64,000 nucleotides of DNA from Gemmatimonadales bacterium (GCA_035491895.1 DATJJY010000063.1:6593-70592); one strand, 5' to 3'; positions 9,951-25,220 are shown, counted from the first letter of the stretch. Made by a program: numbers and translations. Notes: generated by a model from the sequence alone, not told the origin.

Positions 9951-9970
9951 GATCGCGAGTCGTGTCGCGA

Positions 9971-12439: not shown

Positions 12440-12971
12440 ACATCGCCTCCCGGCTCGGCTGAGCGTCCTCGCCGAGCAGGCGCGCCGCAGCCAACTCCAC
12501 CGCTTCGTAGATCTTGATGTAGCCGGTGCAGCGACAGAGGTTGCCGGCGAGCGCCTGCTTGATCTCGTCGCGGGACGGTTTGGGGTTGTGCTCGAGCAGG
12601 GCCTGCGCTGCGAGCAGGAACGCGGGCGTGCAATACCCGCACTGCGCGGCCCCCAGATCGGCGAATGCCGTCTGCAAGGGATGCAGCGTGGCACCGGCCA
12701 TGCCCTCGACCGTGCGGACCGAGCGCCCGCCGCACGCCTGGCCCAGTACCAGGCACGAGAGGACCGGCTGGTCGTCGACCAGGACGGTACAGGTGCCGCA
12801 CTCTCCCAGCTCGCAGCCGTGCTTCGTGCCGGTGAGTCCCAGGTCCTCGCGCAGCACCTCGAGCAGCGTCTTGTGCGGGGCGAACGACACCTCGCACGGC
12901 TCGGTGTTCAGCACGAAGGTGATCGCGACCTTCGACTCGGGCATGTCGACTAAGCTAACCTTGCCATTCAT
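12426..12971 (-). CDS. (2Fe-2S)-binding small subunit of molybdenum hydroxylase (HcrC/CoxS-like)
   Basis: Two cluster motifs are present: GCELGECGTCTVLVDDQPVLSC and CGYCTPAF...CRCTGY. It overlaps the large-subunit start by 14 nt. An alternative start is ATG 12944. Confidence 0.9.
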   Translation of the reverse strand: MNGKVSLVDMPESKVAITFVLNTEPCEVSFAPHKTLLEVLREDLGLTGTKHGCELGECGTCTVLVDDQPVLSCLVLGQACGGRSVRTVEGMAGATLHPLQTAFADLGAAQCGYCTPAFLLAAQALLEHNPKPSRDEIKQALAGNLCRCTGYIKIYEAVELAAARLLGEDAQPSREAMYGRR

Positions 12972-13017
12972 CAGACGCAGCGCGAGCTTCCGTGCGACCG
13001 CTCACAGGAACCGCGCA

Positions 13018-14229
13018 GTGTTGTTCCGCTCGACCCTCGTGCTCCTCGCCTGCTCCAGCGCACTCGTCCTGCACGCCTACGCGCAGGGCGCCGCCGCTCC
13101 CGACTATCGTCTCCAGGCGATCCAGATCCTCAAGACCGTGCCGCTCGTGGACGGGCACAACGACATCCCCGACGCGATTCGCGGACGGGGCGGCGTCGAT
13201 TCGGTCGATTTTTCGGCCACCCAGCTCGGTCTCATGACCGATATCCCGAAGCTGCGGGACGGCCACGTGGGCGCGCAGTTCTGGGCCGCGTATGTCCCGG
13301 TCACGACGATGCACGAAGGCGAGCACCCGGCCGTGTACGCGCTCGAGCAAATCGACCTGGTGCGGCGCCTGTGTGCGCGCTACCCCAGGGATCTCGCCAT
13401 GGCGTACACGGCCGCCGACATCGAGCGCCACTTCAAGGCCGGAAAGGTCTCCTGCCTGATCGGGATCGAAGGCGGGCACGCCATCGAGAGCTCGCTTGGC
13501 GCGCTGCGGATGTTCTACGCCCTCGGCACCCGCTACATGACGCTGACGCACTGGGAGACCACCGACTGGGCCGACGCCGCGACCGACACCGCCAAGCACG
13601 GCGGGCTGACGGCGTTCGGGGAGCAGGTGGTGCTCGAGATGAACCGGCTCGGGATGCTGGTCGACCTGTCGCACGTCTCGGACGGGACGATGATGGACGC
13701 GCTGCGCGTCTCCAAGGCGCCGGTGATGTTCTCCCACTCTTCGGCCCGGTCCATCTCGAATCACGTGCGCAACGTCCCCGACTCGATCCTGAAGCTCGTC
13801 ACCGCGAACGGCGGCATCGTGATGGTGAACTTCAACCCCGGCTTCGTGTCCGAGACGGTCCGGCTGTACGAGGACAGCATGGCGGCGCGGAGCAAGACGC
13901 TGCGCGCGGCAGGGGTGGACTCGGCGGCGCTCGCCGATTCCGCCAAACGCTGGGACCGCGATGCCCCCCGCGCCACGCTGCAGCAGGTGGCCGACCACAT
14001 CGAGCACGTGCGCGACGTGGCGGGGATCGATCATGTGGGACTGGGATCGGACTTCGACGGGATTACGAGCGTGCCGACGGGCCTGGAAAACGTGTCGAAG
14101 TTTCCGGATCTCATCGCGGAGCTGCTGAAGCGGGGATGGAAGCCGGAGGACGTAAGAAAAGTGGTTGGACTCAATGCAATTCGAGTGTTGCGGGATGCGG
14201 AGAGGGTAGCTCGTCAGCTCCAGCGCTAG
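13018..14229 (+). CDS. membrane dipeptidase (peptidase M19)
   Basis: M19 motifs VDGHNDIP, TLTHWETTDWAD, VDLSHVSD, FSHSSARS and GLGSDFDG. The start is set at GTG 13018, which gives signal peptide (M)LFRSTLVLLACSSALVLHAYAQG. The track ORF from 12526 runs antisense through the 2Fe-2S gene. ATG 12943 is an alternative start. Confidence 0.85.
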   Translation: MLFRSTLVLLACSSALVLHAYAQGAAAPDYRLQAIQILKTVPLVDGHNDIPDAIRGRGGVDSVDFSATQLGLMTDIPKLRDGHVGAQFWAAYVPVTTMHEGEHPAVYALEQIDLVRRLCARYPRDLAMAYTAADIERHFKAGKVSCLIGIEGGHAIESSLGALRMFYALGTRYMTLTHWETTDWADAATDTAKHGGLTAFGEQVVLEMNRLGMLVDLSHVSDGTMMDALRVSKAPVMFSHSSARSISNHVRNVPDSILKLVTANGGIVMVNFNPGFVSETVRLYEDSMAARSKTLRAAGVDSAALADSAKRWDRDAPRATLQQVADHIEHVRDVAGIDHVGLGSDFDGITSVPTGLENVSKFPDLIAELLKRGWKPEDVRKVVGLNAIRVLRDAERVARQLQR

Positions 14230-14243
14230 TAGTTAGACGTCCC

Positions 14244-14303
14244 GGGAGACGCTCGGCGTCTGCCTCTACGGCTCAGCGGCCCGGCGTCTCCCTAAGCGTC
14301 TCC
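14244..14303. terminator. bidirectional stem-loop region built from GCGTCTCC-type motifs
   Basis: GGGAGACGC (14244-14252) can pair with GCGTCTCCC (14284-14292) or with AGCGTCTCC (14295-14303). There is also a local hairpin AGACGC-TCG-GCGTCT (14247-14261). The region lies between convergent stops at 14229 and 14307. Confidence 0.45.
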
Positions 14304-14306
14304 TCC

Positions 14307-15830
14307 CTAAAACCCGATCTGATATCGCAAACCTACCGACCAGTACCGGTACTTCTCCGCCGTATTCAGGCTCGGTCCCGCGCCCGTCGTTGCTTGCGCG
14401 CTGTTGGTGTACGTCGCTATCAGCGAGATCTCATCAACCGACCTCCAACTGTGACCCACCGAGGCATCGCCGTGCCATTCCGCCTGCGTCGGCAGCCCCG
14501 TTCCCACTTGCTGGACGCCCAGGCCGACGATCGTGCGCATCCACCATCCTGGGCGGCGGAACAGATATACGGCGCGCCCTTCGCCCAATACGAAGCGGTC
14601 CGGGGCGAAGTAGGTGTGGGAGGGACTGGGTGATTCGCGGTACCCCATGATTCGCCCGTAGACGCCGGCACGCAACCCGAAGGCCACTCCCATCATCACC
14701 GCGACGTTGCCGATGAGCCGGCGATTGCCGTCGGAGAGCCAGGCGGCGTCCCATCCGCTCGACACTTCGAAATTGGGGCTCGGCGATGCATCTAGGTCGA
14801 TGCCGATCTCGTTCCAGACGAAACCGCTGTCCACGAGCAGACGGGTTTCGTCGAATGGATAACGGTTGTAGCTCGCCCCAATCGACAAGTATGTCGTGGG
14901 GTGCAGGCCGGCGCCGAGCTGCACGGTGGCAAATGTGCGCGTGGGTCCGACATCCGGATCGAGGGCGCGCACGCCCACGCCGCCCCGCAGCGTGAGCTTC
15001 GGTGGAAAGGCCTTGATCAGCACCCCGTCGAAGCCCCTGCTCCGTGCCAAGATCCGCGGTGCCCCTGCCGAAGCCTGAGATGCGTTCTGTCGCCAGGAGG
15101 CACGAAGCTGGCCCTGCAACGCTGGACGCAGCAATGCGCTCACGCTGCCGGTCAACGCCACGAAGCTGTTGCGCTCGATGTCGTTCGCGGCGTCCGACGT
15201 GACCCTGAACAAAGGCCGCCGCTCCGCCCGCACCTGGGAGAGTAGTTCCCGCGCTTCGCGGTCCGAGGGCGCGAGCTGCCGCGCCCGGGCGACGTACAGC
15301 TCCGCGAGATCCGGCTCCCCTTGCCACTCGAGCGTTTGGCCGAGGCCCACGAGAATCTCGGGGTCGTCGGGGTGGTGCTCGAGCGCCTCGCGCCACATTC
15401 GCTCGGCCCGGTTCAAGTCCCCGGCCCAGGCCACCATCCGGGCGCGGCCCGCGATCGCGTCGGTCCGGGTCGAATCGATCGCCAGCACCGAATCGTACAG
15501 CGCGGCGGCCCACGTGATCTGTCCGCTCCACGACAGCACGCGGGCGTGCGACACCATCTCGTCTGGCTGCAGCGGCTCGATGCGCCGCAACAGGGCGAAG
15601 CGCGCGAGCGAGCGCTTCAGCTTTCCGTCCCAGCTGTCGAGCGTGGCGAGGCGAAACAGGGCGCGCGGATTGAGGGAGTCGAGCGCCAGGGCCGAGTCGT
15701 ACAAGGCACGGGCGGCCCGGAAGTCCCCGCGGTTGAATGCGTCTTCGGCTTCGGGGAGCTGGGCTGCCGCGCGCCGCGGCACGAGCAGCGCGACGCCGAT
15801 GGCCAGCGCGGCGAAGCTGCTCCGTTTCAC
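14307..15830 (-). CDS. outer-membrane TPR + beta-barrel protein (PgaA/BcsC/PelB-like exopolysaccharide export porin candidate)
   Basis: The start is set at GTG 15830 (GTGA overlap with the upstream stop), giving signal peptide (M)KRSSFAALAIGVALLVPRRAAAQ. About 200 aa of TPR-like helices follow (AEDAFNRGDFRAARALYDSALALD...). The final roughly 290 aa have alternating-hydrophobic strand patterns and end YRYWSVGLRYQIGF (terminal aromatic residue). Confidence 0.7.
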   Translation of the reverse strand: MKRSSFAALAIGVALLVPRRAAAQLPEAEDAFNRGDFRAARALYDSALALDSLNPRALFRLATLDSWDGKLKRSLARFALLRRIEPLQPDEMVSHARVLSWSGQITWAAALYDSVLAIDSTRTDAIAGRARMVAWAGDLNRAERMWREALEHHPDDPEILVGLGQTLEWQGEPDLAELYVARARQLAPSDREARELLSQVRAERRPLFRVTSDAANDIERNSFVALTGSVSALLRPALQGQLRASWRQNASQASAGAPRILARSRGFDGVLIKAFPPKLTLRGGVGVRALDPDVGPTRTFATVQLGAGLHPTTYLSIGASYNRYPFDETRLLVDSGFVWNEIGIDLDASPSPNFEVSSGWDAAWLSDGNRRLIGNVAVMMGVAFGLRAGVYGRIMGYRESPSPSHTYFAPDRFVLGEGRAVYLFRRPGWWMRTIVGLGVQQVGTGLPTQAEWHGDASVGHSWRSVDEISLIATYTNSAQATTGAGPSLNTAEKYRYWSVGLRYQIGF

Positions 15831-18376
15831 CACGACCCCCACAGGTCGCGCATGGCGTAGTACGCGGGCTTCAGCTGCTCGTGCCACTGGGGATCCTCCC
15901 AGGTGGGCCAGACATAGGTAGTGGACGCCGGAACGAACGCGGCGACGTGATCATCCGGGCGCGCCAGGGCCGCGACGACGAAGCGGAACCCGTCCGTCGT
16001 CGCGGTGACGACATTCTCTCGCGCATGAATGGCGGTGAGCACCGTGCGCGTCGAGGGATCGGTCACATTGAGGAGGCCCCATGGCAGCCGCACTTCGACG
16101 AGACTCCGCTCCGCCGTCCGGTCGATGAACCAATCGACGAGTGAGGATGCGGTGACGCGCCCGTAGCGCAGCCGGCCGCGGTTCACCCCCGCCGCCGGGA
16201 TGCGCGTTCCCGTGCGCGTGATCCGAAACCGGTTCGTGGTCACGAACATCGAATCGAACTGTCCCGCGTCGCCGCGTGAGTCGACGGTGCAGAGCAGATT
16301 GTAGAACGGGTCGAGTGCGGTGGGATCCATCCCCGCGCGCGGCTGGATGTAGGGGTTGTAGCTCCGCGTCACAAATAGCTGGCCCTTCGTCGAGTCACCC
16401 AGGTCGAGATAAAACTCGACGCCCACGCCGATCCCCGGCACGCCCGGCAGCCGGAATTCTCCTCGATCGGCGCGAAATGTGTCGAGCCCTATCAGGTAGC
16501 GTACCGCGTCGGGTCCGAGCGGCGGCCGGGCATCGATCGCCAGATAGAGATACGCCTCGTCCGATCCGACGCGCAGCATGAGAGAATCATTTCCCTCGAG
16601 CTGGTGCAGCGCGCGCCAGCGTGCCGGGTCGCCGCCCGGCTCCGGCCGTGTCGCCGCGCCGGCGTAGAGGCCCAGCAGGCCGTAGTGCTGCTCGGCGTCC
16701 ATCGCATTGTGCCACAGCCGCGTGTGGTCGGCCGGCACCTCGAGGTCGATCACGACCCAGTTGTGCTTGAACCATTCGTCGATCCACGCGAACAGGATGC
16801 CGCCGGCGAGGCCGGCCTCGCGGATATCCCGGGTCAGGCGTACGTCCACGTCCGCCATGGTGCGCTCGTCGTGGCCGCCGTGGTTCATGCCTTCGGGCTG
16901 CAGATGGGCGAGTCCGCGCGAGGACGGCACGCCATACTCGGCGATGAGTAGCGGCCGTCCAGCGTGATGGCGCTTCAAGTCCTCCAGGTAACCGAGGTAA
17001 TGCGAAACGCCGGTCGAGTCCCGCGCCGTCCCGTAGGTCGAGTCGTAATCCATGAAATCGGGATAGTACGGGTAGGCGTGATACGAGGCGAAGTAGCCGC
17101 CGAGGTCCGCGGTGGTGGTCCGCACCAGCATGGCATCGAGCGACTGGTCGTCGTTGTTGTACTCGTGGACGCCTTTCAGTGGGGGCAGCCCGAAACGGTC
17201 GCGAAGCTCGGCCTCCTCTTCCAGCGTCGGCTCGGTGGGGTGATGCAGCGGGTCGAGCGTCGGCCAGTTGGTATAGGCGATGGGTCGCTGCGCGTGGTAG
17301 CCGTCCCATTCGTACGTCAAGAGAAAGTCGCACTGCTCCGCCATCCAGACGTCGGCCGGGGTGCCCGAGTCCACCACGAGAAACTTCCCAGCGTAGCGCG
17401 TGCGGCCCGCGCGACGCTCGTTGTAGTGGTGAATCGAAAACGGCTCCCACTCCCGGCCGACGATGAATGCCAGGACGTGGTCCGACACGTCGACGGTGTA
17501 GCGGCCGCCGGCATGCCCGGGACGCGCCGGGATGATCGCGTGCCCGTGCAGCAGATCCACCACCCGGCGCATTTCGTCGCGAAACTCGCTCTTCCAGGCG
17601 GGGTCATCGTAGTCGTCGGCGGGCGGCACCTCCGCCCACACGCCGTGGACCAACCACAGCGTCTGAGCGGAATGACCGTCGTTCCACCGCTTCAGCGCCC
17701 GATAAAACGCCGGCGGGAAGATCGTGTAGAGACGAATCACGTTCGCATGGGCCGCCGCGATGCGGGAGATCCACGACGAGTACGTCGAATCGTCCGCCGG
17801 GAACTCGGCGGGGAATTTCCCGGGACGGGCGGCACCGATGTTGACCCCCTTCACGTAGAACGGGTGCCACGCGGTGCCCTGCAGGATCTCGAAGCGCTCG
17901 CCATGCGCGCGCGCCGGGACCTGCGCCGCCGACGGCCGTCGGACTGGGGGGAGCGCTTCGCCCAGGTATCCGAGAGCATCGAGACGATGCTTCGCGTCGG
18001 CGTAGCCGGGCGCGATACGCAGCGCGCGGCGAAAGGCGGTAATCGCCTGCTCCCGTTTCCCCTGTCGCTCGCGTATCAGGCCGATCCCATACCACGCGTC
18101 GGCGTTCTGCGAATCGGCCTTCAGGGCGGCGCCGAAGCGCCGCTCCGCCCGGCCGATATCGCTCATGCGCAACGCCACGAACCCGAGCCCGATCTGAATG
18201 TCGGGGAGGCCGGGGCAGAGGGAATCGGCTGCGGCGAACCGTGCGGCGGCGACCGGAATCCGCTCCTCGCGGTAGGCATGCCAGGCGCTGTCGGCGAGGC
18301 CGGCGATGCGCGCCGGGCACGTAGAACGGGGGCTCGCGACCTGCTGCAGGGTGAGGACGCTCAGCACCAGGATCAC
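15827..18376 (-). CDS. secreted TPR + (beta/alpha)8 glycoside-hydrolase-like protein
   Basis: The start is set at GTG 18376 (GTGA overlap with the GT2 stop), giving (M)ILVLSVLTLQQVASP. The track ORF extends to 19075, but that extension is Arg/Pro-rich and overlaps the GT2 gene. TPRs: ADAWYGIGLIRERQGKREQAITAFRRALRIAPGYADA. Clan GH-A-like motifs appear in order: ANVIRLYT, IVGREWEP, SYHAYPYY, LLIAEYGVP, FAWIDEWF. Confidence 0.65.
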   Translation of the reverse strand: MILVLSVLTLQQVASPRSTCPARIAGLADSAWHAYREERIPVAAARFAAADSLCPGLPDIQIGLGFVALRMSDIGRAERRFGAALKADSQNADAWYGIGLIRERQGKREQAITAFRRALRIAPGYADAKHRLDALGYLGEALPPVRRPSAAQVPARAHGERFEILQGTAWHPFYVKGVNIGAARPGKFPAEFPADDSTYSSWISRIAAAHANVIRLYTIFPPAFYRALKRWNDGHSAQTLWLVHGVWAEVPPADDYDDPAWKSEFRDEMRRVVDLLHGHAIIPARPGHAGGRYTVDVSDHVLAFIVGREWEPFSIHHYNERRAGRTRYAGKFLVVDSGTPADVWMAEQCDFLLTYEWDGYHAQRPIAYTNWPTLDPLHHPTEPTLEEEAELRDRFGLPPLKGVHEYNNDDQSLDAMLVRTTTADLGGYFASYHAYPYYPDFMDYDSTYGTARDSTGVSHYLGYLEDLKRHHAGRPLLIAEYGVPSSRGLAHLQPEGMNHGGHDERTMADVDVRLTRDIREAGLAGGILFAWIDEWFKHNWVVIDLEVPADHTRLWHNAMDAEQHYGLLGLYAGAATRPEPGGDPARWRALHQLEGNDSLMLRVGSDEAYLYLAIDARPPLGPDAVRYLIGLDTFRADRGEFRLPGVPGIGVGVEFYLDLGDSTKGQLFVTRSYNPYIQPRAGMDPTALDPFYNLLCTVDSRGDAGQFDSMFVTTNRFRITRTGTRIPAAGVNRGRLRYGRVTASSLVDWFIDRTAERSLVEVRLPWGLLNVTDPSTRTVLTAIHARENVVTATTDGFRFVVAALARPDDHVAAFVPASTTYVWPTWEDPQWHEQLKPAYYAMRDLWGSW

Positions 18377-19788
18377 GACGGGATCCTCGTCCCGGCCGCG
18401 GCGAATCCGGTACGGGTCATCCGGCCCCACGTCTTGCGCGCCCGGATCGCCGACCAGAACGCCTTCAGACGAAACCACACGGTGCACTGGCGGTAGCCGA
18501 AGTTCTCGAGGGCTGCGTACCAGAGGAGGCGCACCAGGTCGCTCGCCCGCCGGTAGCGGCGGAAGCCGACTTCCTCGAGCAGGATCCCCCAGATCGACAG
18601 GATCATGCCGTACCCGAGCGCAACCAGCAGGAAGAGCAGCGCGAAGGGGACATCGATGAACCCCCACCACAGTCCCAGCGCGGTGACGAGGTAGCCGAGC
18701 ACCTCGACGAGCGGAGCCAGCATTTCGCCGAACGTGAAGAACGGGAAGCCGAGCAACCCGATGCGCTTGTACCGCGGCCGGAGCATCATGTGCCGATACT
18801 TCCACATCGTGAGGATCAGGCCGCGGTGCCAGCGCTCCCGCTGGCGGCCCAGCACCGCCAGCGTTTCGGGGACCTCGGTCCAGGCGACGGGGTCGGGGAC
18901 GAAGGTAATCGAGTAGGGGAGGCGCCGGTCGAGCAGGTAGCGGTGCAGGCGGACCACGACGTCGAAGTCCTCGACGACGCTGTCGGTGCGATAGCCGCCG
19001 ATCTCCAGCAGATAGTCCTTGCGGAACAGCCCGAACGCCCCCGAGATGATCATGTTGCCGCCCAGCCGGTTCCACCCGAGCCGGCCATACAGGAAGGACC
19101 GCAGGTACTCGACCACCTGGATCCCGGGGAGAAAGCGCGGCGCCACGCGCGGCTCGACGACGCGCCCGTCCTTGATCACCGATCCGTTCGCGACGCGCAC
19201 CGTGCCGCCCACCGCCGCGATGCGCAGCCCGAGCGAGAACGGGCGGGTCAGCCGCAGCATGGCGTCGGGCTCGATCAGCGTGTCGGCATCGACCGCAATG
19301 ACGAGCGGCCAGCGGCTGGCGTTGATCGCCGCGTTCAGGGAATCGGCCTTGCCGCCGTTCTCCTTGTCGATCACGAGAAGGCGCGGCCGCGTGCGGGAGC
19401 GGTACAGCGCGCGAATCGGACTGGTCGACAGCGTCTCCGGGTAGGTGCGCGGAATCTCATAGAGATCGAACGCGTCCTCCAGACGCCCCATCGTGTCGTC
19501 CGAGGACCCGTCGTTGACGACGATCACCTCGTAGTGCCGGTAATCGAGCGTGAGGATCGCGGTAACGCTCGCCTTGATCGTGGCGCTCTCGTTGTAGGCC
19601 GGCACCAGGATCGAGATCGGCGGCGGGGCACCCACCTCCTGCAGCCGCACCAGGTCCTCGTCTTCGGCGAGGAGGCTCTGCTCCCAGATCTCGGGGAGGG
19701 CGAGGATCAACAGCAGCGCGTAGAACGAGTTCAGCAGGACGAAGTACACGACGACGGCGGCGTCGAATCCGTGGATGAAGTGGTTCAC
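18373..19788 (-). CDS. processive family-2 glycosyltransferase (PgaC/IcaA/BcsA-class polysaccharide synthase)
   Basis: 471 aa with a GTG start. There is an N-terminal TM helix, then ISILVPAYNE, VVNDGSSDD, AVDADT (DxD), VVEDFD (ED) and QRERWHRG (QxxRW), followed by a C-terminal TM bundle. No PilZ or other c-di-GMP module is visible. Confidence 0.9.
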   Translation of the reverse strand: MNHFIHGFDAAVVVYFVLLNSFYALLLILALPEIWEQSLLAEDEDLVRLQEVGAPPPISILVPAYNESATIKASVTAILTLDYRHYEVIVVNDGSSDDTMGRLEDAFDLYEIPRTYPETLSTSPIRALYRSRTRPRLLVIDKENGGKADSLNAAINASRWPLVIAVDADTLIEPDAMLRLTRPFSLGLRIAAVGGTVRVANGSVIKDGRVVEPRVAPRFLPGIQVVEYLRSFLYGRLGWNRLGGNMIISGAFGLFRKDYLLEIGGYRTDSVVEDFDVVVRLHRYLLDRRLPYSITFVPDPVAWTEVPETLAVLGRQRERWHRGLILTMWKYRHMMLRPRYKRIGLLGFPFFTFGEMLAPLVEVLGYLVTALGLWWGFIDVPFALLFLLVALGYGMILSIWGILLEEVGFRRYRRASDLVRLLWYAALENFGYRQCTVWFRLKAFWSAIRARKTWGRMTRTGFAAAGTRIPS

Positions 19789-20846
19789 GCCGCGAACTCC
19801 GACAGCGCCTGCGGCGACAGGCCGAGGATCAGGCGTGAGACGTAGCGCGCATCGGGTTGGGCGCCGGTTTCGGCCTTGAGCAGGGCGTCACGCCCTGCGG
19901 CGCCGAGCCGGGTCAGGGCGAGCGCGGCGCGGAGCCGCACCCACCACTCGGCGTCCGCGAGCCGCGACCGGAGATCGGCGAGCGTCGCCGCATCGCCGAT
20001 TCGACCGAGCGAGCGCACCGCCAGCGCGCGGACTTCCCAGGCCGAGTCGGTGCACAGCGTCTGCAGTACCGTCACCGTGCGAGCGTGAGGGTAATCTCCC
20101 AGCGCCCGCGCCACCTGCACGCGCACCTCCGCATCGCGGTGCGTGGCGAGCGCGGTGATCGGCTCGCGCAGCCGCGCGTCCCCCAGCCGGCCGGAGAACT
20201 CCACGATGCGTGGGAGCCCGAGATCGTAGACGAGGCCGAGCCGCTCGGTGAGGAGCGGCACGGTGACGGCGTTCTGGCCCCGCAACACCGCCGCGTAGTG
20301 CGCCTGCACCGGGCCGACCATGTCGGGCAGCCGGTCGAGCACGATGTTGACGAGACGCGGAGTGGCGAACCGTTCGAGCGCGACGGCGATGGTGATGCGC
20401 ACAGCGGGGTGCGGGTCCTTGAGCAGCCGCTCGATGTCGCCCGCGTCGGCGGCGGTGCCGGCGACCGACAGGAATCGGGCCGCCTCGAGCCGCCGCCACC
20501 AGGTGCGCGACCGCACCGCCTTCCGCAAACGCGTCGTCCAGGGGCGGCGCTCCAGCGCATCGGCGAGGGCGCGCCAGCGCTCGCCGGTGAGCCGCACCGA
20601 CCAGGCGAGCAGGGCTTCCACGGCGTCGCTGCGCGGCAGCGCCTCGAGCCCGCGCACCACCAGCTCGGGACCGACGTCCCCGAGCGCCCAGCCCTTGATC
20701 GCTTCGTCGAGCACCATGCGCCGCGGGGCCACCCGGTCGCGGCGCCGCCGTCGCAACCAGCGGTTGGCGAGCAGGACCGCGATCAGGACGACGATCGACC
20801 CCCCCTGCAGCACCGCCACGAAAAAAAGGAGTGTCTCCGCCGTCAC
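19785..20846 (-). CDS. membrane-anchored HEAT-repeat protein
   Basis: GTG start. The N-terminal TM helix is TLLFFVAVLQGGSIVVLIAVLLA, followed by RRRRRDR. HEAT / PBS-lyase-like repeats are present: DPHPAVRITIAVALE, DAEVRVQVARALGD, DSAWEVRALAVRSLGRIGD, DAEWWVRLRAALALTRLG. Confidence 0.75.
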   Translation of the reverse strand: MTAETLLFFVAVLQGGSIVVLIAVLLANRWLRRRRRDRVAPRRMVLDEAIKGWALGDVGPELVVRGLEALPRSDAVEALLAWSVRLTGERWRALADALERRPWTTRLRKAVRSRTWWRRLEAARFLSVAGTAADAGDIERLLKDPHPAVRITIAVALERFATPRLVNIVLDRLPDMVGPVQAHYAAVLRGQNAVTVPLLTERLGLVYDLGLPRIVEFSGRLGDARLREPITALATHRDAEVRVQVARALGDYPHARTVTVLQTLCTDSAWEVRALAVRSLGRIGDAATLADLRSRLADAEWWVRLRAALALTRLGAAGRDALLKAETGAQPDARYVSRLILGLSPQALSEFAA

Positions 20847-21571
20847 CGACCGACCCAGCGGCGGATCTTCTCCAGTGCCACGCGCAGGCTCACCGGCTTC
20901 ACGAGGTAGTCTGTCGCCCCGCCTTCGAGAGCGCGCAGCTGCTCGTCCTCACCGCCGTGCACCGTCATGAACACGACCCGGAACACTCCGGGCCGCTCGC
21001 GCTGCAGCATATAGAAGAGGGAATGGCCGTCGAGCCCCGGCAGATCGACGTCGAGCAGCAGCAGGGGGTGCGCGTCGCCGACGGCGAGGGTCCGCAGCGT
21101 ATCGAGTGCGTCCCGCCCGTTGCGCAGCACCCGGCTCGTGTAGCCGCGGGACGACAGCCCGTACTCGAGCAGCTCGATCAGCGCGGTATCGTCCTCGATA
21201 ATGAACACGTCGGGGAGCTGGGAGACGGGGCCCGGCTGGGTGAACGTGGCCCTGAGCCGCCCGACGTAGGCGTGAGCGGTCACGCCGCGGTCGGTGGCCG
21301 CGACGCCACCACCGGCGATCCAGCTCTTCGCGGCCTCCTCCATCTCCGCAGCGACCCGCGTCGCCTCCGCGAATCCGTAGGAGCCCGCCGAGCCGCGGAT
21401 CTTGTGCGATTCGCGCCGGAATTCGTCGAGTGCCTGCGGGTCGGCGCCGTCGGTGGCCAGCCGGTCGGCGAGACTGGCGAGGTGCTCGATCTGCCCCTGC
21501 ACGCTTCGGAGGTACCCTTCGAGGAGGCCGGGAGGGAGCAGTCCCGGGTCGAAATCGCCCGTCACGACCAT
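20843..21571 (-). CDS. Hpt domain - receiver (REC) domain fusion protein
   Basis: Hpt motif EFRRESHKIRGSAGSYGF. REC residues: IIEDD, LLLLDVDLPGLDG, VVFMTVHG, DYLVKP. No DNA-binding output domain is present. The start is set at ATG 21571 (a G-run lies upstream). GTG 21637 is the longest alternative. Confidence 0.8.
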   Translation of the reverse strand: MVVTGDFDPGLLPPGLLEGYLRSVQGQIEHLASLADRLATDGADPQALDEFRRESHKIRGSAGSYGFAEATRVAAEMEEAAKSWIAGGGVAATDRGVTAHAYVGRLRATFTQPGPVSQLPDVFIIEDDTALIELLEYGLSSRGYTSRVLRNGRDALDTLRTLAVGDAHPLLLLDVDLPGLDGHSLFYMLQRERPGVFRVVFMTVHGGEDEQLRALEGGATDYLVKPVSLRVALEKIRRWVGR

Positions 21572-21628
21572 GAAGATAGGAACCCCCCCCGCGAGGGGCC
21601 ATAGTGCTGCCGGAGTTATGCTTGGGTC

Positions 21629-22075
21629 GTGGAGCACCAGGATATCGGGTTGTGCCTGATGTGCCGCTGGAAGCGCGCCGTTACGAACCGGCGCGGCTCG
21701 CTGTTCTTCCGCTGCGCGCGTGCCGAGTCGGATGCGCGCTTCGTCCGCTACCCGCCACTGCCGGTGCTCGCCTGCCCCGGATACGAGGAAGCAATGCTAT
21801 TCGTCGTCCTGATGCACTACACGAAGCCGCTGGCCGAGGTGGACGCGGTCCGCGCCGAGCACTATGGGCATCTCGAGCGCGCGGCCGCCGAGGGCACGAT
21901 ACTCGCCTGGGCGCGACGCGACCCCCCGACGGGGGGCGTGCTCGTGGCTGCGGCCCCCGATCGGGCGGCGCTGGAGCGCGTCCTGGCGGAGGACCCTTAC
22001 GTGCGCGCGGGTGTCGCGAAACCGGAAATTGTGGAGTTCAATCCGAAGACCGTGAAACTGAAGCTGCGTGAATAG
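21629..22075 (+). CDS. YciI-like protein with N-terminal Cys-rich (CxxC...C...C) extension
   Basis: The C-terminal roughly 95 aa (MLFVVLMHYTKPLAEVDAVRAEHYGHLERAAAEGTILAWARR...DPYVRAGVAKPEIVEFNP) look YciI-like. The N-terminal 55 aa carry CLMC...FRC...LAC. The start is GTG 21629. No stop separates the two parts. Confidence 0.65.
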   Translation: MEHQDIGLCLMCRWKRAVTNRRGSLFFRCARAESDARFVRYPPLPVLACPGYEEAMLFVVLMHYTKPLAEVDAVRAEHYGHLERAAAEGTILAWARRDPPTGGVLVAAAPDRAALERVLAEDPYVRAGVAKPEIVEFNPKTVKLKLRE

Positions 22076-22127
22076 TGGCCTGTGGCGGTGGCCAGTGATC
22101 TGCACCAGCCACTCGCTACAGGCCACT
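22074..22127. terminator. stem-loop between convergent genes
   Basis: AGTGGCCTGT (22074-22083) pairs perfectly with ACAGGCCACT (22118-22127). The hairpin starts at the stop codon of the YciI-like gene and ends 8 nt before the stop of the minus-strand gene. Confidence 0.5.
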
Positions 22128-22134
22128 GGTCACG

Positions 22135-22575
22135 TCATTTGCCGTACACACCGATCCCGTACCAGCACGGGTTCGTTTGGCAGTTCGCCATAACCACCTT
22201 CACGCGATAGCGCTGCGTCTCGCTCGGCGTGACCTGCACCAGCGGATAGTCGTCGTTCTGGATGTCGGAATCGACCTGATCGCCGTCGGCGTCGTAAAGG
22301 ACGAGATCGAGGTCCTTGCAGTCGTTGTCGCATACACCGACGAGCGCGTACCGCGTGCCGGCGTGCAGCGTCAGGGTGAACGAGTCGTTCTCATTGTCGT
22401 GCAGCGACCCGATCTGGGTCTCGTGTGTCTGCTCGTAACCCTTATCGCTGAGTCCCTTGGACGCACTTTTCAGGTAAGTCTCTACCTGAGTGCGCCACTG
22501 GTTGTCGCTCTGCGCCTGAGCGGGCGTGAGCCCGAAGGCCAGGGCGACGGTGACGGCGACGGCGACTCGATGCAT
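22135..22575 (-). CDS. secreted hypothetical protein (Cys-containing, beta-rich)
   Basis: Signal peptide MHRVAVAVTVALAFGLTPAQAQ. The mature part is acidic and has 4 Cys (VGVCDNDCKD...MANCQTNPCW). No family recognised. Confidence 0.6.
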   Translation of the reverse strand: MHRVAVAVTVALAFGLTPAQAQSDNQWRTQVETYLKSASKGLSDKGYEQTHETQIGSLHDNENDSFTLTLHAGTRYALVGVCDNDCKDLDLVLYDADGDQVDSDIQNDDYPLVQVTPSETQRYRVKVVMANCQTNPCWYGIGVYGK

Positions 22576-22757
22576 GGCGACCCCCTCTTGGGAAAGCTGG
22601 TGACGACCCTACGCTGCTGGTTGGGAACCAGCCGCAGATTGGCGAAAACCGTGCCATCCGCGGCGCGCTACTAAAGTAGTAAGCGGAAGTCGGTTACAGC
22701 GGATCCGCGGCGGTCCTTCACACATGCCACCCCTGCAGGGTGCAAAAACGCCGCAGT

Positions 22758-23021
22758 TTATGCGTCGGGCGGGGTCCCGGAGTTCTGTCCACCGGCCCAC
22801 CCCGTACCCACCCCGATCCCGAACAGCACGCCCATCGGGATGGTGATGATGGGAAGGGCGGCGACCACGATGCCGGCGGCGGTGCCCACGACCCCGGCGA
22901 CCACTGCGGCGGCGGGCTTCTGCGCCCCGTCGACGTAGCGCAGCCGGCGTCGCACGAAGTTCTTCGTGGGAAGGAATCCGCCGCCGAACGCGGCGGCGCC
23001 GAGCAACAATCCGATGATCAT
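22758..23021 (-). CDS. small Gly/Ala-rich membrane protein
   Basis: 87 aa with an ATG start. There are two or three hydrophobic segments (MIIGLLLGAAAFGGGF, AAAVVAGVVGTAAGIVVAALPIITIPMGVLFGIGVG). Coding status rests on composition only. Confidence 0.5.
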   Translation of the reverse strand: MIIGLLLGAAAFGGGFLPTKNFVRRRLRYVDGAQKPAAAVVAGVVGTAAGIVVAALPIITIPMGVLFGIGVGTGWAGGQNSGTPPDA

Positions 23022-23082
23022 GGCTCCTCCTACGGAACTTGCGGCGTCTTGGTTTCCGACGCAATGTCTGGAAAGGCGCGCT

Positions 23083-23181
23083 ATCAGCCATCAGCTATCA
23101 GCCGTCAGCGACGACATTCTGGACGGGCACGGGATCGCTGACGGCTTATGCCTGACAGCTGATGGCTGACAGCTGATGGCT
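23083..23181. repeat. inverted arrays of tandem heptanucleotide repeats (ATCAGCN x4 / NGCTGAY x6.5)
   Basis: Left arm 23083-23110: atcagcc atcagct atcagcc gtcagcg. Right arm 23136-23181: cgctgac ggcttat gcctgac agctgat ggctgac agctgat ggct. The arms are complementary (stems of 11 and 10 bp). The 14-mer TGACAGCTGATGGC is directly duplicated at 23153-23166 and 23167-23180. Confidence 0.85.
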
Positions 23182-23814
23182 CTCAAAGACATCGACATCG
23201 TCGAGCGAACCCAGCTCCTCAAGATCGCCGTCTGGTTCGGGCCGGCGACGTTCATCATGCTGTCGGCCGCCTGGGCGAAGGCTTACGCCCAGGGTTCGAT
23301 TCCCGGCTGGCTCTGCGCCCTCTTGATTGTCCTCGATCTCCCGCTGATCGCATTCGGGATACTCGGGATTCACGTGTTCACGAATCGCGCATCGCAGGGA
23401 CTCGTCCAGGGGATCTACGCGGTGGGCGACATCCCGCCGCCGCGCAGCTATCCACGGCAGGACGTGATGATCGTGCGGGGACAGTTCCAGGAGGCAGCGG
23501 ACTACTTCCGCGATCACCTCACCGTCGAGCCGGACGACAACGAGGCGCGACTGCGGTTGGCCGATCTGCTCGAGCAGCGGCTCAACGACCTCCCCGGTGC
23601 TGAACGATTGTACCTCGAGGTCCGGGGGCACCAGCCCATTCGCGGGGAGGAGATGCGGGCGTCGAACGGTCTGATCGATCTGTATCGCAAACAGGGCAAT
23701 CGCGAGCGGCTGCTGGTGGAGCTGGCGCGGTTCCGCGACCGCTACCCGGGGACGCCCGGGGCAGAGGCGGCAGCCCGTCTGTTGCAGGAGCTCAAGAGCC
23801 TGACTGACGTCTGA
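23176..23814 (+). CDS. membrane protein with C-terminal TPR-like region
   Basis: 212 aa. There are two TM segments (IAVWFGPATFIMLSAAWA, WLCALLIVLDLPLIAFGILGIHVF), then helical repeats (RGQFQEAADYFRDHLTVEPDDNEARLRLADLL...). The ATG lies inside the last heptamer repeat. Confidence 0.6.
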   Translation: MALKDIDIVERTQLLKIAVWFGPATFIMLSAAWAKAYAQGSIPGWLCALLIVLDLPLIAFGILGIHVFTNRASQGLVQGIYAVGDIPPPRSYPRQDVMIVRGQFQEAADYFRDHLTVEPDDNEARLRLADLLEQRLNDLPGAERLYLEVRGHQPIRGEEMRASNGLIDLYRKQGNRERLLVELARFRDRYPGTPGAEAAARLLQELKSLTDV

Positions 23815-23824
23815 CGTCTGACGT
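23804..23824. repeat. (TGACGTC)x3 tandem heptamer
   Basis: Read directly: TGACGTC at 23804-23810, 23811-23817 and 23818-23824. Each unit contains the palindrome GACGTC. The array spans the stop codon (23812-23814) of the plus-strand gene and ends 5 nt before the fabH stop. Confidence 0.9.
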
Positions 23825-23829
23825 CAGCA

Positions 23830-24825
23830 TCACCATCTCACCGCAGCACTCCCCCACGTAAACCCCGACCCGAACGCCGTCAGAATCAGCAACTCCCCGC
23901 GCCCCAGGCGCCCATCGCAGACCGCCTCGTGCAGGGCGATGGGAATCGACGCGGCGGTCGTGTTGCCGTACTTCTGGATGTTGTTGAAGATCTGGTCGTC
24001 GCGCAGCTCGAGCTGGCGCTGCACCATCTCGGAGATGCGCTGATTGGCCTGGTGCGCGATCAGGAGCTTCACGTCGCTCGTCGTATGGCCGTTCGTCTGG
24101 AGGGCGAGCTTCACCGACTCGGGCATCTTCGTCGTGGCGTGCTTGAAAACCTCGCGTCCTTCCATTTTGATTCGGGCCTTTCCGTCCGCGAGCATCTGGG
24201 CGCTGATCCATGGGACGTGCGACAGTCCCGGGCCGTCCATCCAGAGCTTCTCGGCCTGGCGACCGTCGCTGAAGAGGTGCGTGGAGAGGATGCCGCGCTT
24301 GGAGTCGTCGGTGGGCCCGAGAATCGCCACGCCCGCGCCGTCGCCGAAGATCACTGCCGTGTCGCGTCCCTCGGTTGTCGGCTCGAGTCCCGGCGACTGG
24401 ATTTCGGCTCCCACGAGCAGCACGCGGCGGTACTGACCGCAGCGGACCCACGCGTCGGCCACCGAGAGGCCATACAAAAAGCCGGTGCATTGATCGCGCA
24501 CGTCGAGCGCGGGGATATCGGTGACGCCGAGCAGGCGCTGCAAGAAGACGCCGTTGCCGGGGAAGAAGTGGTCGGGGGAGGCGGTCGCAAAGATGATGCA
24601 GTCGAGGTCCGTCGCCCGGAGACCCGCCTGGGCGAGCGCCATGCGCGTTGCCTCGGCGGCCAGCGAGGAGCAGGTCGTGCCGGGCTCCACCCAGCGCCGC
24701 TCCCGGATCCCGGTGCGCTGCGTAATCCATTCGTCCGACGTGTCCATCAGCTTGGACAGGTCGTCATTGGTAACAACGCGCGGGGGAACGTAGAACCCAG
24801 TGGCAATGAATTCAGTGCGAGCCAT
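23830..24825 (-). CDS. fabH: beta-ketoacyl-ACP synthase III
   Basis: 331 aa. The protein reads MARTEFIATGFYVPPRVVTNDDLSKLMDTSDEWITQRTGIRERRW. The active-site Cys context is DQCTGFLYGL. HQANQRI and GNTTAASIP are typical FabH motifs. Confidence 0.9.
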   Translation of the reverse strand: MARTEFIATGFYVPPRVVTNDDLSKLMDTSDEWITQRTGIRERRWVEPGTTCSSLAAEATRMALAQAGLRATDLDCIIFATASPDHFFPGNGVFLQRLLGVTDIPALDVRDQCTGFLYGLSVADAWVRCGQYRRVLLVGAEIQSPGLEPTTEGRDTAVIFGDGAGVAILGPTDDSKRGILSTHLFSDGRQAEKLWMDGPGLSHVPWISAQMLADGKARIKMEGREVFKHATTKMPESVKLALQTNGHTTSDVKLLIAHQANQRISEMVQRQLELRDDQIFNNIQKYGNTTAASIPIALHEAVCDGRLGRGELLILTAFGSGFTWGSAAVRW

Positions 24826-24959
24826 GCACCCTCTGTTTCACTGACACCTGTTCACCCCTGTGCGTCGGCACGTCTGTACGTCTGCAATGTCTATCATCTA
24901 GCTTTTCACTGTAGTTGAGAGAAGATTTGCCGCTTACTAACTCCCCCGCAAGGGAGCCC

Positions 24960-25217: not shown

Positions 25218-25220
25218 CCC

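What the first reader, a model, noticed from the sequence alone, without database searches (positions are those of the whole stretch)
14307..21637. Five-gene, GTGA-chained synthase-dependent exopolysaccharide locus with a non-canonical accessory and regulatory set
Five consecutive minus-strand genes are joined at all four junctions by the same 4-nt GTGA start/stop overlap (20846/20843, 19788/19785, 18376/18373, 15830/15827). The order is:
1. Hpt-REC protein.
2. N-terminally membrane-anchored HEAT-repeat protein.
3. Processive GT2 synthase (D, DxD, ED and QRERW motifs, TM helices at both ends).
4. Secreted TPR + (beta/alpha)8 glycosidase-like protein.
5. TPR + C-terminal beta-barrel protein ending in Phe.

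An inner-membrane GT2 synthase, a periplasmic TPR/hydrolase and a TPR-porin follow the logic of known synthase-dependent systems (PgaABCD, BcsABZC, Alg8/44/K/E, Pel). The accessory set here is different. I see no CE4 deacetylase, PgaD, BcsB, PilZ or other c-di-GMP receptor. A HEAT-repeat membrane protein and a phosphorelay module take their place. I could not match this architecture to a characterised system from memory. The polymer is unknown.
Basis: partly seen in the sequence, partly recalled or inferred. Interest (0 to 1): 0.75.

Follow-up and report, generated by a model that had tools for sequence, protein, structure and literature searches.

The report
Uncharacterised HEAT-partnered exopolysaccharide synthase-export operon
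A soil Gemmatimonadales bacterium carries a five-gene operon that looks like a complete machine for making a sugar polymer and exporting it through both membranes, built around helper proteins (a HEAT-repeat partner, a phosphorelay protein and a new glycosidase-like family) that recur from Gemmatimonadota to Campylobacterota and Bacillota and that I could not find described.

Summary
Five minus-strand genes (14307-21637) are chained by four GTGA overlaps, and every domain call was reproduced.

- **A:** Hpt-REC with all phospho-acceptor residues.
- **B:** one transmembrane (TM) helix plus cytoplasmic HEAT repeats.
- **C:** processive GT2, nearest to PgaC/IcaA but far below the family cut-off.
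- **D:** TPR, then a clan GH-A-like (beta/alpha)8 barrel, then a beta-sandwich. It has no Pfam, NCBIfam or PDB sequence relative.
- **E:** TPR plus a 16-strand barrel whose best structural matches are BcsC, PgaA and PelB.

The five genes are two modules, not one fixed unit. A-B-C is an invariant triad, and D-E is an almost invariant pair that usually lies elsewhere. The modules are joined in several independent arrangements, and fusion proteins exist (GT2::D, D::E, D::CE4 deacetylase). HEAT-GT2-D recurs in Sulfuricurvum (with CE4 and an E-like porin) and in Gorillibacterium (with an Hpt-REC-GGDEF-REC regulator).

Best reading: a synthase-dependent exopolysaccharide system of a new, widespread variant. 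The polymer may be PNAG-like, and control probably runs through REC and HEAT. A link to c-di-GMP in relatives is not excluded. I rate it a new variant of a known kind.

The parts
20843..21637 (-). Gene A: Hpt-REC phosphorelay protein (264 aa by the longest ORF; Met23 at 21571 is an alternative start).
   Evidence: Pfam Hpt (E 1.6e-8) and Response_reg (E 1.2e-18). Canonical Hpt His78 in SHKIRGSAGSYG. REC residues E148-D149-D150, D196, T225 and K247 are present and conserved in orthologues. It lies directly upstream of B in essentially all B-seeded loci, and is REC-only in many of them.
19785..20846 (-). Gene B: single-pass membrane protein with a cytoplasmic HEAT-repeat solenoid (353 aa).
   Evidence: Pfam HEAT_2 (E 7.7e-32). 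A hydrophobic segment at residues 2-30 is followed by RRRRRDR...PRR, so by the positive-inside rule the HEAT domain faces the cytoplasm (topology is inferred). It sits immediately before C in every related locus. Profile matches extend to HEAT proteins next to the GT2 in L170, L172 and L173.
18373..19788 (-). Gene C: processive inner-membrane GT2 synthase (471 aa).
   Evidence: Pfam Glyco_tranf_2_3, Glycos_transf_2 and Glyco_trans_2_3. Best NCBIfam model is PgaC_IcaA at 144 bits, against a cut-off of 422. 29% identical to E. coli PgaC over 271 aa. Motifs D93, D167xD169, E273-D274 and Q316RERW are present. Hydrophobic segments lie at about 4-35 and 356-405.
15827..18376 (-). Gene D: TPR (residues ~23-134), then a clan GH-A-like (beta/alpha)8 barrel (~155-570), then a beta-sandwich (~590-830); 849 aa. 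Residues 140-849 are the 'D-module', a family with no existing model.
   Evidence: AlphaFold model, pLDDT 76. Best non-TPR Foldseek matches are GH157 (E 4e-9), GH72 Gel4 and a GH5 mannosidase. No Pfam, NCBIfam or PDB sequence hit. The family has 1557 cluster representatives at 50% identity. Near-universal residues are R215, E309 (after beta4; codon 17450-17452), H433/Y435 (beta6), E480 (beta7; codon 16937-16939) and D533-E534-W535.
14307..15830 (-). Gene E: signal peptide, TPR (to ~204), then a 16-strand outer-membrane beta-barrel (207-506) ending in Phe; 507 aa.
   Evidence: AlphaFold model, pLDDT 89.7, with 16 strands. Foldseek matches: BcsC 9b8a (E 1.6e-15), PgaA barrel 4y25 (TMt 0.77), PelB 9h80_M (TMt 0.70). 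The N-terminus MKRSSFAALAIGVALLVPRRAAA/QLP looks like a Sec signal. It follows D directly in 66 of 71 testable loci.
14235..14303 (.). Imperfect inverted repeats in the 77-nt gap between the convergent stops of E and the M19 dipeptidase gene. This may be a bidirectional terminator hairpin.
   Evidence: the repeat finder reports a 9-nt perfect arm pair (14245-14253 / 14295-14303) and longer arms at ~71% complementarity. There is no T-run, the terminator scan did not call it, and its function was not tested.

Best explanation
The locus encodes a complete synthase-dependent exopolysaccharide system for a bacterium with two membranes.

**Proposed mechanism (each step is shown only as far as the domain, fold and gene-neighbourhood evidence goes; the activities themselves are inferred)**
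1. C, an inner-membrane processive GT2, polymerises a sugar from a nucleotide-sugar and threads the chain through its own TM channel.
2. B is anchored beside C by one TM helix and presents a cytoplasmic HEAT solenoid. It is an obligate partner of this GT2 clade, formally in the position of PgaD, PelE or Alg44. It probably works as an adaptor between signalling proteins and the synthase.
3. A, a soluble Hpt-REC protein fed by an unlinked kinase, sets activity by phosphorylation of Asp196. This step is the least supported.
4. In the periplasm, D processes the nascent chain with a retaining GH-A-type active site (candidate residues E309 and E480). This would be trimming or transglycosylation. D probably docks through its TPR onto E.
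5. E, a TPR scaffold plus a 16-strand porin, passes the polymer across the outer membrane.

The polymer is unknown. The most likely candidate is a beta-linked N-acetylhexosamine chain resembling PNAG (about 0.4). The reasons are that the nearest synthase family is PgaC/IcaA and that D-modules elsewhere are fused or adjacent to PgaB/IcaB-like CE4 deacetylases.
For: **Fold and domain evidence for all five roles**
- Domain calls.
- AlphaFold models and Foldseek matches.
- Conserved candidate catalytic residues in D.

**Operon structure**
- Four conserved 4-nt overlaps join the genes.

**Functional linkage of the A-B-C and D-E modules**
- They lie next to each other in at least four different arrangements among Gemmatimonadales. 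There are 9 colinear loci and 1 divergent locus. In 3 loci B-C and a histidine kinase are inserted between D and E, and in 1 locus B-C follows E.
- One chromosomal slot holds A-B-C-D-E, A-B-C alone, or A-B-C with a different C-terminal extension.

**Rosetta-stone fusions**
- GT2::D-module: P0463, whose GT2 part is 45% identical to C over its full length.
- D::E: P0378 and P0382.
- D::CE4: P0393 and P0396; the best model for the CE4 part is PgaB/IcaB.

**Cross-phylum synteny** (confirmed with profile HMMs)
- Sulfuricurvum: HEAT -> GT2 -> D -> CE4 -> E-like porin.
- Gorillibacterium: Hpt-REC-GGDEF-REC -> HEAT -> GT2 -> D-module protein.
- L170: histidine kinase -> REC -> HEAT -> GT2::D.
Against: - No experiment bears on the locus, and nothing is known about the polymer.
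- In 30 of 44 D-seeded loci with room on both sides of D-E (at least 4.5 kb upstream and 6 kb downstream), D-E has no GT2 in the flanks. Most A-B-C loci lack D-E. I could not test whether the two modules co-occur in the same genomes.
- D has no convincing signal peptide.
- The window contains no CE4. The PNAG-like guess therefore rests on distant relatives.
- No cognate kinase was found in the 64-kb window.
- Relatives carry GGDEF, HD-GYP and degenerate HD_5 genes, so control could run through c-di-GMP rather than phosphorylation.
- The D model is only moderately confident (pLDDT 76), and its whole-chain TM-scores to GH157 are low (0.26 / 0.40).
Confidence: 0.75

Rival explanations
1. It is simply a diverged pgaABCD-type PNAG operon. 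C would be PgaC, E would be PgaA, and D would be a PgaB whose sequence has drifted beyond recognition. On this reading it is already known in kind, and only the names are missing.
For: - PgaC_IcaA is the best-scoring synthase model (E 5e-42).
- The PgaA barrel is a top structural match for E (4y25, TMt 0.77).
- PgaB also carries a (beta/alpha)8 hydrolase domain (PMC5933820, listed).
- Sulfuricurvum and other relatives add CE4 deacetylases whose best models are PgaB/IcaB.
- A survey of pga operons reports environmental variants that lack detectable pgaB and pgaD (PMC7112194).
Against: - The GT2 scores 144 bits against a cut-off of 422, and is only 29% identical to PgaC with a 24-residue insertion.
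- The PgaA model scores 32 bits against a cut-off of 367, in the TPR region only. hhalign of E against PgaA matched only one TPR stretch (probability 0.2).
- hhalign of D against PgaB gave nothing (probability 0.06). D's conserved residues fit a two-Glu clan GH-A site.
- There is no PgaD and no CE4 in the window or in 167 Gemmatimonadales-type loci.
- An invariant HEAT partner and a REC protein have no counterpart in Pga.
Confidence: 0.15
2. The synthase is controlled by c-di-GMP rather than by phosphorylation. The HEAT-GT2 pair would bind the nucleotide at its interface, as PgaC-PgaD do, and the REC protein would only tune a local c-di-GMP source or sink.
For: - In Gorillibacterium the protein in position A is Hpt-REC-GGDEF-REC.
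- L170 has an HD-GYP protein with the canonical HHEWYNGWGYP motif next to the operon.
- A membrane-bound, degenerate HD_5 gene lies divergently upstream of A in 27 of 36 Gemmatimonadales A-B-C loci that lack D-E.
- PgaCD binds c-di-GMP without any recognisable domain (PMC8461298).
Against: - The window has no GGDEF, EAL, HD-GYP or PilZ near the operon.
- In the D-E-linked clade, only 1 of 10 B-seeded loci keeps the HD_5 gene.
- The REC domain keeps every phospho-acceptor residue and is the one constant signalling element. Histidine kinases sit in the operon in L055, L076, L079 and L170.
Confidence: 0.3
3. D-E is an independent outer-membrane and periplasmic module that merely landed next to A-B-C in this lineage. 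It might take up or degrade an external glycan, or export a different polymer.
For: - Most D-E pairs stand alone among housekeeping genes.
- D::E fusion proteins also stand alone.
- Some A-B-C loci carry a different downstream partner, a ~240-aa extension of C that is weakly YaiO-like.
Against: - A GT2::D fusion exists.
- B-C-D synteny is conserved in three other lineages at 32-45% identity.
- In L055, L076 and L079, B-C is inserted exactly between D and E.
- E's nearest structures are all exopolysaccharide exporters.
Confidence: 0.1

Closest known systems
PgaABCD / HmsHFRS poly-beta-1,6-GlcNAc system (E. coli, Yersinia)
   Same: - The overall logic matches: an inner-membrane GT2 synthase, a periplasmic enzyme with a (beta/alpha)8 domain, and a TPR plus 16-strand porin.
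- PgaC/IcaA is the nearest synthase model.
- The PgaA barrel superposes on E.
- Relatives of the locus add PgaB/IcaB-like CE4 deacetylases.
   Different: - The GT2 is 29% identical to PgaC and far below the family cut-off.
- There is no PgaD.
- There is no CE4 in this locus.
- D is not detectably homologous to PgaB and carries its own TPR and a beta-sandwich.
- A HEAT-repeat membrane protein and an Hpt-REC protein are added.
Bcs cellulose system (BcsA-BcsB-BcsZ-BcsC)
   Same: - BcsC is the best structural match to E (9b8a, E 1.6e-15).
- It combines a periplasmic glycosidase with a TPR-porin.
- The GT2 has a QxxRW motif.
   Different: - There is no PilZ domain on the synthase and no BcsB.
- The CelA model scores only 48 bits.
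- BcsZ is GH8, an (alpha/alpha)6 fold, not a GH-A barrel.
Pel system (PelA-G)
   Same: - PelB is a TPR-porin that matches E structurally (9h80_M, TMt 0.70).
- A periplasmic hydrolase, with or without a deacetylase, is associated with the porin's TPR.
- A helical-repeat inner-membrane accessory protein (PelE) is part of the synthase complex (PMC8461298).
   Different: - Pel uses a soluble GT4 (PelF) and a GAF-GGDEF c-di-GMP receptor (PelD).
- Neither of these is present here.
Clan GH-A glycoside hydrolases (GH157 endo-beta-1,3-glucanase, GH72 Gel4, GH5)
   Same: - They are the best non-TPR structural matches to D.
- D keeps an Arg on beta2, a Glu after beta4, His-x-Tyr on beta6 and a Glu on beta7 in at least 95% of 150 family representatives.
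   Different: - There is no sequence-level match to any Pfam, NCBIfam or PDB entry.
- The residue before the putative acid/base is Arg rather than Asn.
- Substrate and activity are untested.
E. coli yaiO-yaiP-yaiS cryptic cluster (GT2, outer-membrane barrel, deacetylase-like protein)
   Same: A GT2 is associated with a YaiO-type barrel. The 711-aa variants of C have a C-terminal extension with a weak Pfam YaiO hit, and JGI names them 'YaiO family'.
   Different: - YaiP is only 27% identical to C, over the N-terminal half.
- hhalign of the extension against E. coli YaiO is not significant.
- This variant is not the one in the window.

Membership tests
PgaABCD PNAG system | Synthase is a PgaC/IcaA equivalog (TIGR03937 score at or above the curated cut-off). 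| tested here: not met
   144.2 bits against a cut-off of 422.3. 29% identity to E. coli PgaC over 271 aa.
PgaABCD PNAG system | PgaB: periplasmic CE4 de-N-acetylase plus a GH153 domain. | tested here: not met
   No Polysacc_deac_1 in any of the five proteins. No CE4 in the window by tblastn, or in 167 related loci. hhalign of D against PgaB gave probability 0.06.
PgaABCD PNAG system | PgaD: a small inner-membrane partner that forms the c-di-GMP site together with PgaC. | tested here: not met
   No such gene is present. The gene before C encodes a 353-aa single-TM HEAT protein.
PgaABCD PNAG system | PgaA: TPR plus a 16-strand export porin. | tested here: inconclusive
   The fold criterion is met: 16 strands, and PgaA barrel 4y25 matches at TMt 0.77. 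The sequence model TIGR03939 scores 32.5 bits against a cut-off of 366.65. hhalign against PgaA is not significant.
Synthase-dependent exopolysaccharide secretion systems (general class) | Inner-membrane processive glycosyltransferase with D, DxD, ED and QxxRW motifs and flanking TM helices. | tested here: met
Synthase-dependent exopolysaccharide secretion systems (general class) | Outer-membrane beta-barrel porin coupled to a periplasmic TPR scaffold. | tested here: met
   Model with pLDDT 89.7. The best structural matches are BcsC, PgaA and PelB.
Synthase-dependent exopolysaccharide secretion systems (general class) | Periplasmic polymer-modifying or polymer-cleaving enzyme encoded with the porin. 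| tested here: inconclusive
   GH-A-like fold with conserved candidate catalytic Glu residues. The D->E pairing is conserved. Activity and periplasmic location were not tested, and the signal peptide is atypical.
Synthase-dependent exopolysaccharide secretion systems (general class) | Post-translational c-di-GMP receptor (PilZ, PelD-type GGDEF, PgaCD interface or MshEN). | tested here: not met
   No such domain is present in the window proteins. A cryptic site at a B-C interface cannot be tested with these tools.
Bcs cellulose synthase system | BcsA with a C-terminal PilZ domain, plus BcsB. | tested here: not met
   CelA scores 48 bits against a cut-off of 699. No PilZ or BcsB domains are present.
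Clan GH-A glycoside hydrolases | (beta/alpha)8 barrel with an acid/base Glu after beta4 and a nucleophile Glu after beta7. | tested here: inconclusive
   Strand positions in the model place E309 after beta4 and E480 in beta7. These residues are conserved in 142/147 and 144/149 representatives. The top non-TPR fold matches are GH157, GH72 and GH5. There was no structural superposition of the isolated domain and no assay.
Any existing Pfam/NCBIfam glycosidase family (for D) | Significant match to a profile model. | tested here: not met
   No hit at E up to 10 (Pfam) or 0.01 (NCBIfam). A profile search of PDB sequences found nothing relevant.
His-Asp phosphorelay components | Hpt with the phospho-His motif HxxKG; REC with an acidic pocket, phospho-Asp, Thr and Lys. 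| tested here: met
   H78 in SHKIRGSAGSYG. E148-D149-D150, D196, T225 and K247 are present and conserved in orthologues. Phosphotransfer itself was not tested.

The most novel reading that the evidence does not exclude
The locus represents a previously unrecognised, cross-phylum class of synthase-dependent exopolysaccharide machinery.

- Its hallmarks are an obligate HEAT-repeat inner-membrane partner of the GT2 and a founding glycoside-hydrolase or transglycosylase family, the D-module, with about 1,500 clusters at 50% identity.
- The synthase would be gated by His-Asp phosphotransfer (REC to HEAT to GT2), either instead of the c-di-GMP receptors used by the cellulose, alginate, Pel, PNAG and Nfr systems or upstream of such a receptor.
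Probability: 0.35. Interest if true: 0.8.

Novelty: new variant of a known kind. Interest (0 to 1): 0.66.

Why it matters
- **Few known types.** Only a handful of synthase-dependent polysaccharide systems are known: cellulose, alginate, Pel, PNAG and Nfr. All of them are gated by c-di-GMP (PMC8461298).
- **A further widespread type.** Relatives of the D protein turned up in more than 575 species-level genomes in one capped scan. The best 80 were almost all Gemmatimonadales. Clear relatives also exist in Campylobacterota and Bacillota. Three of its components carry no functional annotation.
- **What it could explain.**
  - It offers a candidate matrix polymer for Gemmatimonadota, an abundant soil phylum that is hard to culture.
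  - It supplies a likely new CAZy family.
  - It gives a testable case of a synthase controlled through a response-regulator and HEAT adaptor.
- **A practical way in.** The fusion proteins and culturable carriers such as Gorillibacterium and Sulfuricurvum provide an experimental entry point.

Tried and rejected
**Searches that found nothing**
- Sequence searches for D residues 140-849 and for the E barrel in Pfam, NCBIfam and PDB, including a profile search at E=10.
- hhalign of D against PgaB and of E against PgaA: not significant.
- Promoter and terminator scan of 14000-22400: counts at shuffle level.
- tblastn of the window for CE4, histidine kinase, HD_5 and GGDEF proteins taken from related loci: none.
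- Literature searches:
  - No paper combined HEAT repeats with a synthase-dependent system or with PgaC/PNAG.
  - The two papers that mention Gemmatimonadota together with PgaC are glacier metagenome surveys.
  - The systematic pga/bcs/pel survey (PMC7112194) mentions neither HEAT nor Gemmatimonadota.
  - I considered the B. subtilis ydaJKLMN operon as a possible relative of the Bacillota D-module proteins. No B. subtilis sequence was available to compare, so this is untested.

**Tests that were weak or uninformative**
- YaiO homology of the 240-aa extension in the 711-aa GT2 variants. Pfam gave only E 0.02, below the cut-off. hhalign against E. coli YaiO was not significant. I keep this as a weak lead only.
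- Neighbours of stand-alone D-E pairs (NAD synthetase, DtxR, ABC transporter, thioesterase and others). These are lineage-specific housekeeping synteny, not system components.
- Using cluster-member names to learn whether the 711-aa GT2 and a D protein come from the same MAG: uninformative.

**Technical limits**
I used the single window sequence instead.
- Foldseek of the whole D model is swamped by TPR hits.
Full report
**Observation**

The window has 64-72% G+C. Its closest relatives are Gemmatimonadales metagenome-assembled genomes.

Five minus-strand ORFs lie at the stated coordinates:

| Gene | Coordinates | Length |
|---|---|---|
| A | 20843-21637 | 264 aa |
| B | 19785-20846 | 353 aa |
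| C | 18373-19788 | 471 aa |
| D | 15827-18376 | 849 aa |
| E | 14307-15830 | 507 aa |

All four junctions read GTGA. Orthologous operons whose D protein is 64-87% identical keep a 4-nt [A/G]TGA overlap at all four junctions. The chaining is therefore conserved, and it fits translational coupling. No internal promoter-like or terminator-like signals exceed chance.

The start of A is uncertain. The longest ORF overlaps a divergent YCII gene, and Met23 at 21571 is an alternative start.

**The five proteins**

- **A** has an Hpt domain (His78 in SHKIRGSAGSYG). Its REC domain has the full acidic pocket, Asp196, Thr225 and Lys247, and these are conserved in orthologues.
- **B** has one N-terminal hydrophobic helix followed by an Arg-rich cluster and then HEAT repeats. 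By the positive-inside rule the solenoid is cytoplasmic. This is an inference.
- **C** is a GT2 with D93, D167xD169, E273-D274 and Q316RERW, and hydrophobic segments at both ends.
  - Its best family model is PgaC/IcaA, at 144 bits against a cut-off of 422.
  - It is 29% identical to E. coli PgaC and carries a 24-residue insertion.
- **D** was modelled at pLDDT 76 as TPR (23-134), a (beta/alpha)8 barrel (about 155-570) and a beta-sandwich (about 590-830).
  - Apart from TPR proteins, the best Foldseek matches are GH157, GH72 Gel4 and a GH5 mannosidase, all clan GH-A.
  - Residues 140-849 match no Pfam, NCBIfam or PDB sequence, even as a profile at E=10.
  - Across 150 representatives of the family, R215, E309 (after beta4), H433/Y435 (beta6), E480 (beta7) and D533-E534-W535 are at least 95% conserved. 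This is the pattern expected of a retaining GH-A active site.
  - The N-terminus is a short, uncharged hydrophobic stretch followed by an invariant Cys. Export is plausible but not shown.
- **E** was modelled at pLDDT 89.7 as a signal peptide, TPR helices and 16 beta-strands ending in Phe. Its best structural matches are BcsC, the PgaA barrel (TMt 0.77) and PelB. The barrel has no Pfam model.

**Two modules, not one fixed operon**

I seeded a search on D in one genome per species. At least 575 stretches encoded a relative, and the best 80 were almost all Gemmatimonadales.
- E follows D directly in 66 of 71 testable loci.
- A-B-C is colinear with D-E in 9 loci and divergent in 1.
- In 3 loci, B, C and a PAS histidine kinase lie on the other strand between D and E.
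- In 1 locus, B-C follows E.
- In 30 loci with room on both sides, A-B-C is absent from the flanks.
- The neighbours of stand-alone D-E pairs are unrelated housekeeping genes.

I then seeded on B in metagenomes. Wherever the contig extended far enough, A lay directly upstream of B and C directly downstream. Of the 46 loci that could be classified downstream of C:
- 10 have D-E;
- 20 have a ~240-aa extension fused to C, preceded by a signal-like segment and weakly YaiO-like;
- 16 have nothing.

All three forms occupy the same chromosomal slot between an S9 peptidase/FabH gene pair and an M19 peptidase/xanthine-dehydrogenase gene pair. The window sits in this slot too.

**Evidence that the modules work together**

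A library of representatives clustered at 50% identity holds 1557 relatives of the D-module. Among them are three kinds of fusion protein:

| Fusion | Examples |
|---|---|
| GT2 + TM helix + D-module | P0463; its GT2 part is 45% identical to C over the full length |
| TPR + D-module + TPR-barrel (D::E) | P0378, P0382 |
| D-module + CE4 deacetylase (best model PgaB/IcaB) | P0393, P0396 |

The gene contexts of distant members repeat the same set (profile HMMs confirm the B, D and E assignments):
- **L170:** PAS kinase -> REC -> HEAT -> GT2::D, with an HD-GYP gene nearby.
- **Gorillibacterium sp. (Bacillota):** Hpt-REC-GGDEF-REC -> HEAT -> GT2 -> D-module protein.
- **A Sulfuricurvum MAG (Campylobacterota):** HEAT -> GT2 -> D -> CE4 -> TPR-barrel.
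- **L171:** GT2 -> TPR protein -> D::CE4 -> CE4, with no HEAT protein.

The conserved core across phyla is therefore HEAT + GT2 + D-module. Diderms add E. Some lineages add CE4. The signalling part varies but nearly always contains a REC domain.

**Mechanism**

*Shown:* the domain content, the folds, the conserved residues, the gene linkage and the fusions.

*Inferred:*
- C polymerises and translocates the chain.
- B is its obligate membrane partner and acts as a cytoplasmic adaptor.
- A passes a phosphoryl signal from an unlinked kinase.
- D trims or transglycosylates the chain in the periplasm and docks on E.
- E exports the polymer.

The polymer is unknown. A PNAG-like N-acetylhexosamine chain is the best guess (about 0.4). 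It rests on the nearest synthase family and on CE4 partners in relatives. However, no CE4 lies in the window or in 167 Gemmatimonadales-type loci.

Control by c-di-GMP cannot be excluded. Relatives carry GGDEF, HD-GYP and degenerate HD_5 genes. PgaCD binds c-di-GMP without any recognisable domain (PMC8461298).

**Comparison with known systems and novelty**

The system works like Pga, Bcs and Pel, but it fails the membership tests for each:
- C is not a PgaC equivalog.
- There is no PgaD, PgaB, BcsB, PilZ, PelD or PelF.

Literature searches found no description of a HEAT-partnered synthase or of this locus type. The systematic operon survey mentions neither HEAT repeats nor Gemmatimonadota.

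I rate it a new variant of a known kind. It is widespread, three of its components lack functional annotation, and it has an unusual regulatory set.

**Limits**
- I could not test whether stand-alone D-E pairs and A-B-C triads co-occur in the same genomes.
- I could not fold the isolated catalytic domain of D or any complexes.
- I could not assign the substrate.

Noticed in passing
L082:10001-12136 (also L083, L084, L087 and 20 of 46 classifiable B-seeded loci): Many orthologues of C are 711 aa. The GT2 is followed by a signal-peptide-like hydrophobic segment (...KASVAALIALCCATPCLGQ...) and a conserved ~240-aa domain. That domain gets a sub-threshold Pfam YaiO hit (E 0.02), and JGI names these proteins 'YaiO family outer membrane protein'. 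A 416-aa putative lipoprotein often follows. An inner-membrane synthase fused to a possible outer-membrane barrel would need internal cleavage. hhalign against E. coli YaiO was not significant.
   Followed up: partly
L086:6727-7653 (-) and its equivalents; absent from the window upstream of 21637: A membrane-anchored HD_5 protein is transcribed divergently from gene A. It occurs in 27 of 36 A-B-C loci that lack D-E, but in only 1 of 10 that have D-E, and not in the window. The Gemmatimonadales version lacks the HD...GYP motif and looks degenerate. Its homologue next to the L170 operon has the canonical HHEWYNGWGYP motif.
   Followed up: partly
L172:3770-5458 (Gorillibacterium sp., GCA_051594765.1): The gene in position A of this Bacillota locus encodes Hpt-REC-GGDEF-REC (562 aa). 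This ties the HEAT-GT2-D core to a local diguanylate cyclase in that lineage.
   Followed up: no
L055:7157-9172 (-), L076:12946-15057 (-), L079:7951-10371 (-): In one Gemmatimonadales lineage a PAS-HisKA-HATPase kinase is the third gene of a B-C-kinase operon. That operon is inserted on the opposite strand between D and E, and there is no Hpt-REC gene. In L058, an Hpt-REC-REC protein of 707 aa precedes B.
   Followed up: partly
window 15827-18376, D residues 1-60: D orthologues begin with only 8-10 hydrophobic residues and no basic n-region. A Cys invariant across the 36 aligned D proteins follows (Cys20), and a second invariant Cys lies at position 54. In some orthologues the context resembles a lipobox (e.g. 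LVAC), but not in the window. The export route of D is unclear.
   Followed up: partly
window 8670-14229 and 21629-27251: The flanking genes are:
- alpha-L-fucosidase (8670-9950, -);
- xanthine-dehydrogenase-type molybdopterin subunit (9971-12694, -);
- M19 membrane dipeptidase (12526-14229, +);
- YCII-domain protein (21629-22075, +);
- TPR protein (23176-23814, +);
- FabH-like ketoacyl synthase (23830-24825, -);
- S9 prolyl oligopeptidase with PD40 repeats (25221-27251, +).

The peptidase/FabH and M19/xanthine-dehydrogenase flanks are syntenic with distant relatives of the locus.
   Followed up: partly
L046 (JBLMWC010000149.1, labelled Bacillota MAG) and L051 (JBGPXY010000103.1, labelled Candidatus Eisenbacteria): Two MAGs assigned to other phyla carry D-E pairs 50-52% identical to the window's, within the range seen among Gemmatimonadales. 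L051 also has B-C after E. This could be mis-binning or horizontal transfer, and I did not resolve it.
   Followed up: no
L174:9001-13551 and L175:9001-13104: D::E fusion proteins of 1516 and 1367 aa stand alone among unrelated genes. Their layout is TPR, D-module, TPR, then a barrel with a weak BCSC_C hit. They mirror the stand-alone D-E pairs.
   Followed up: partly
L171:4007-13207 (GCA_964495805.1): This variant locus has no HEAT protein. Its order is Big_7 protein -> GT2 (35% identical to C) -> TPR protein -> D-module::CE4 fusion -> a second CE4 protein.
   Followed up: no
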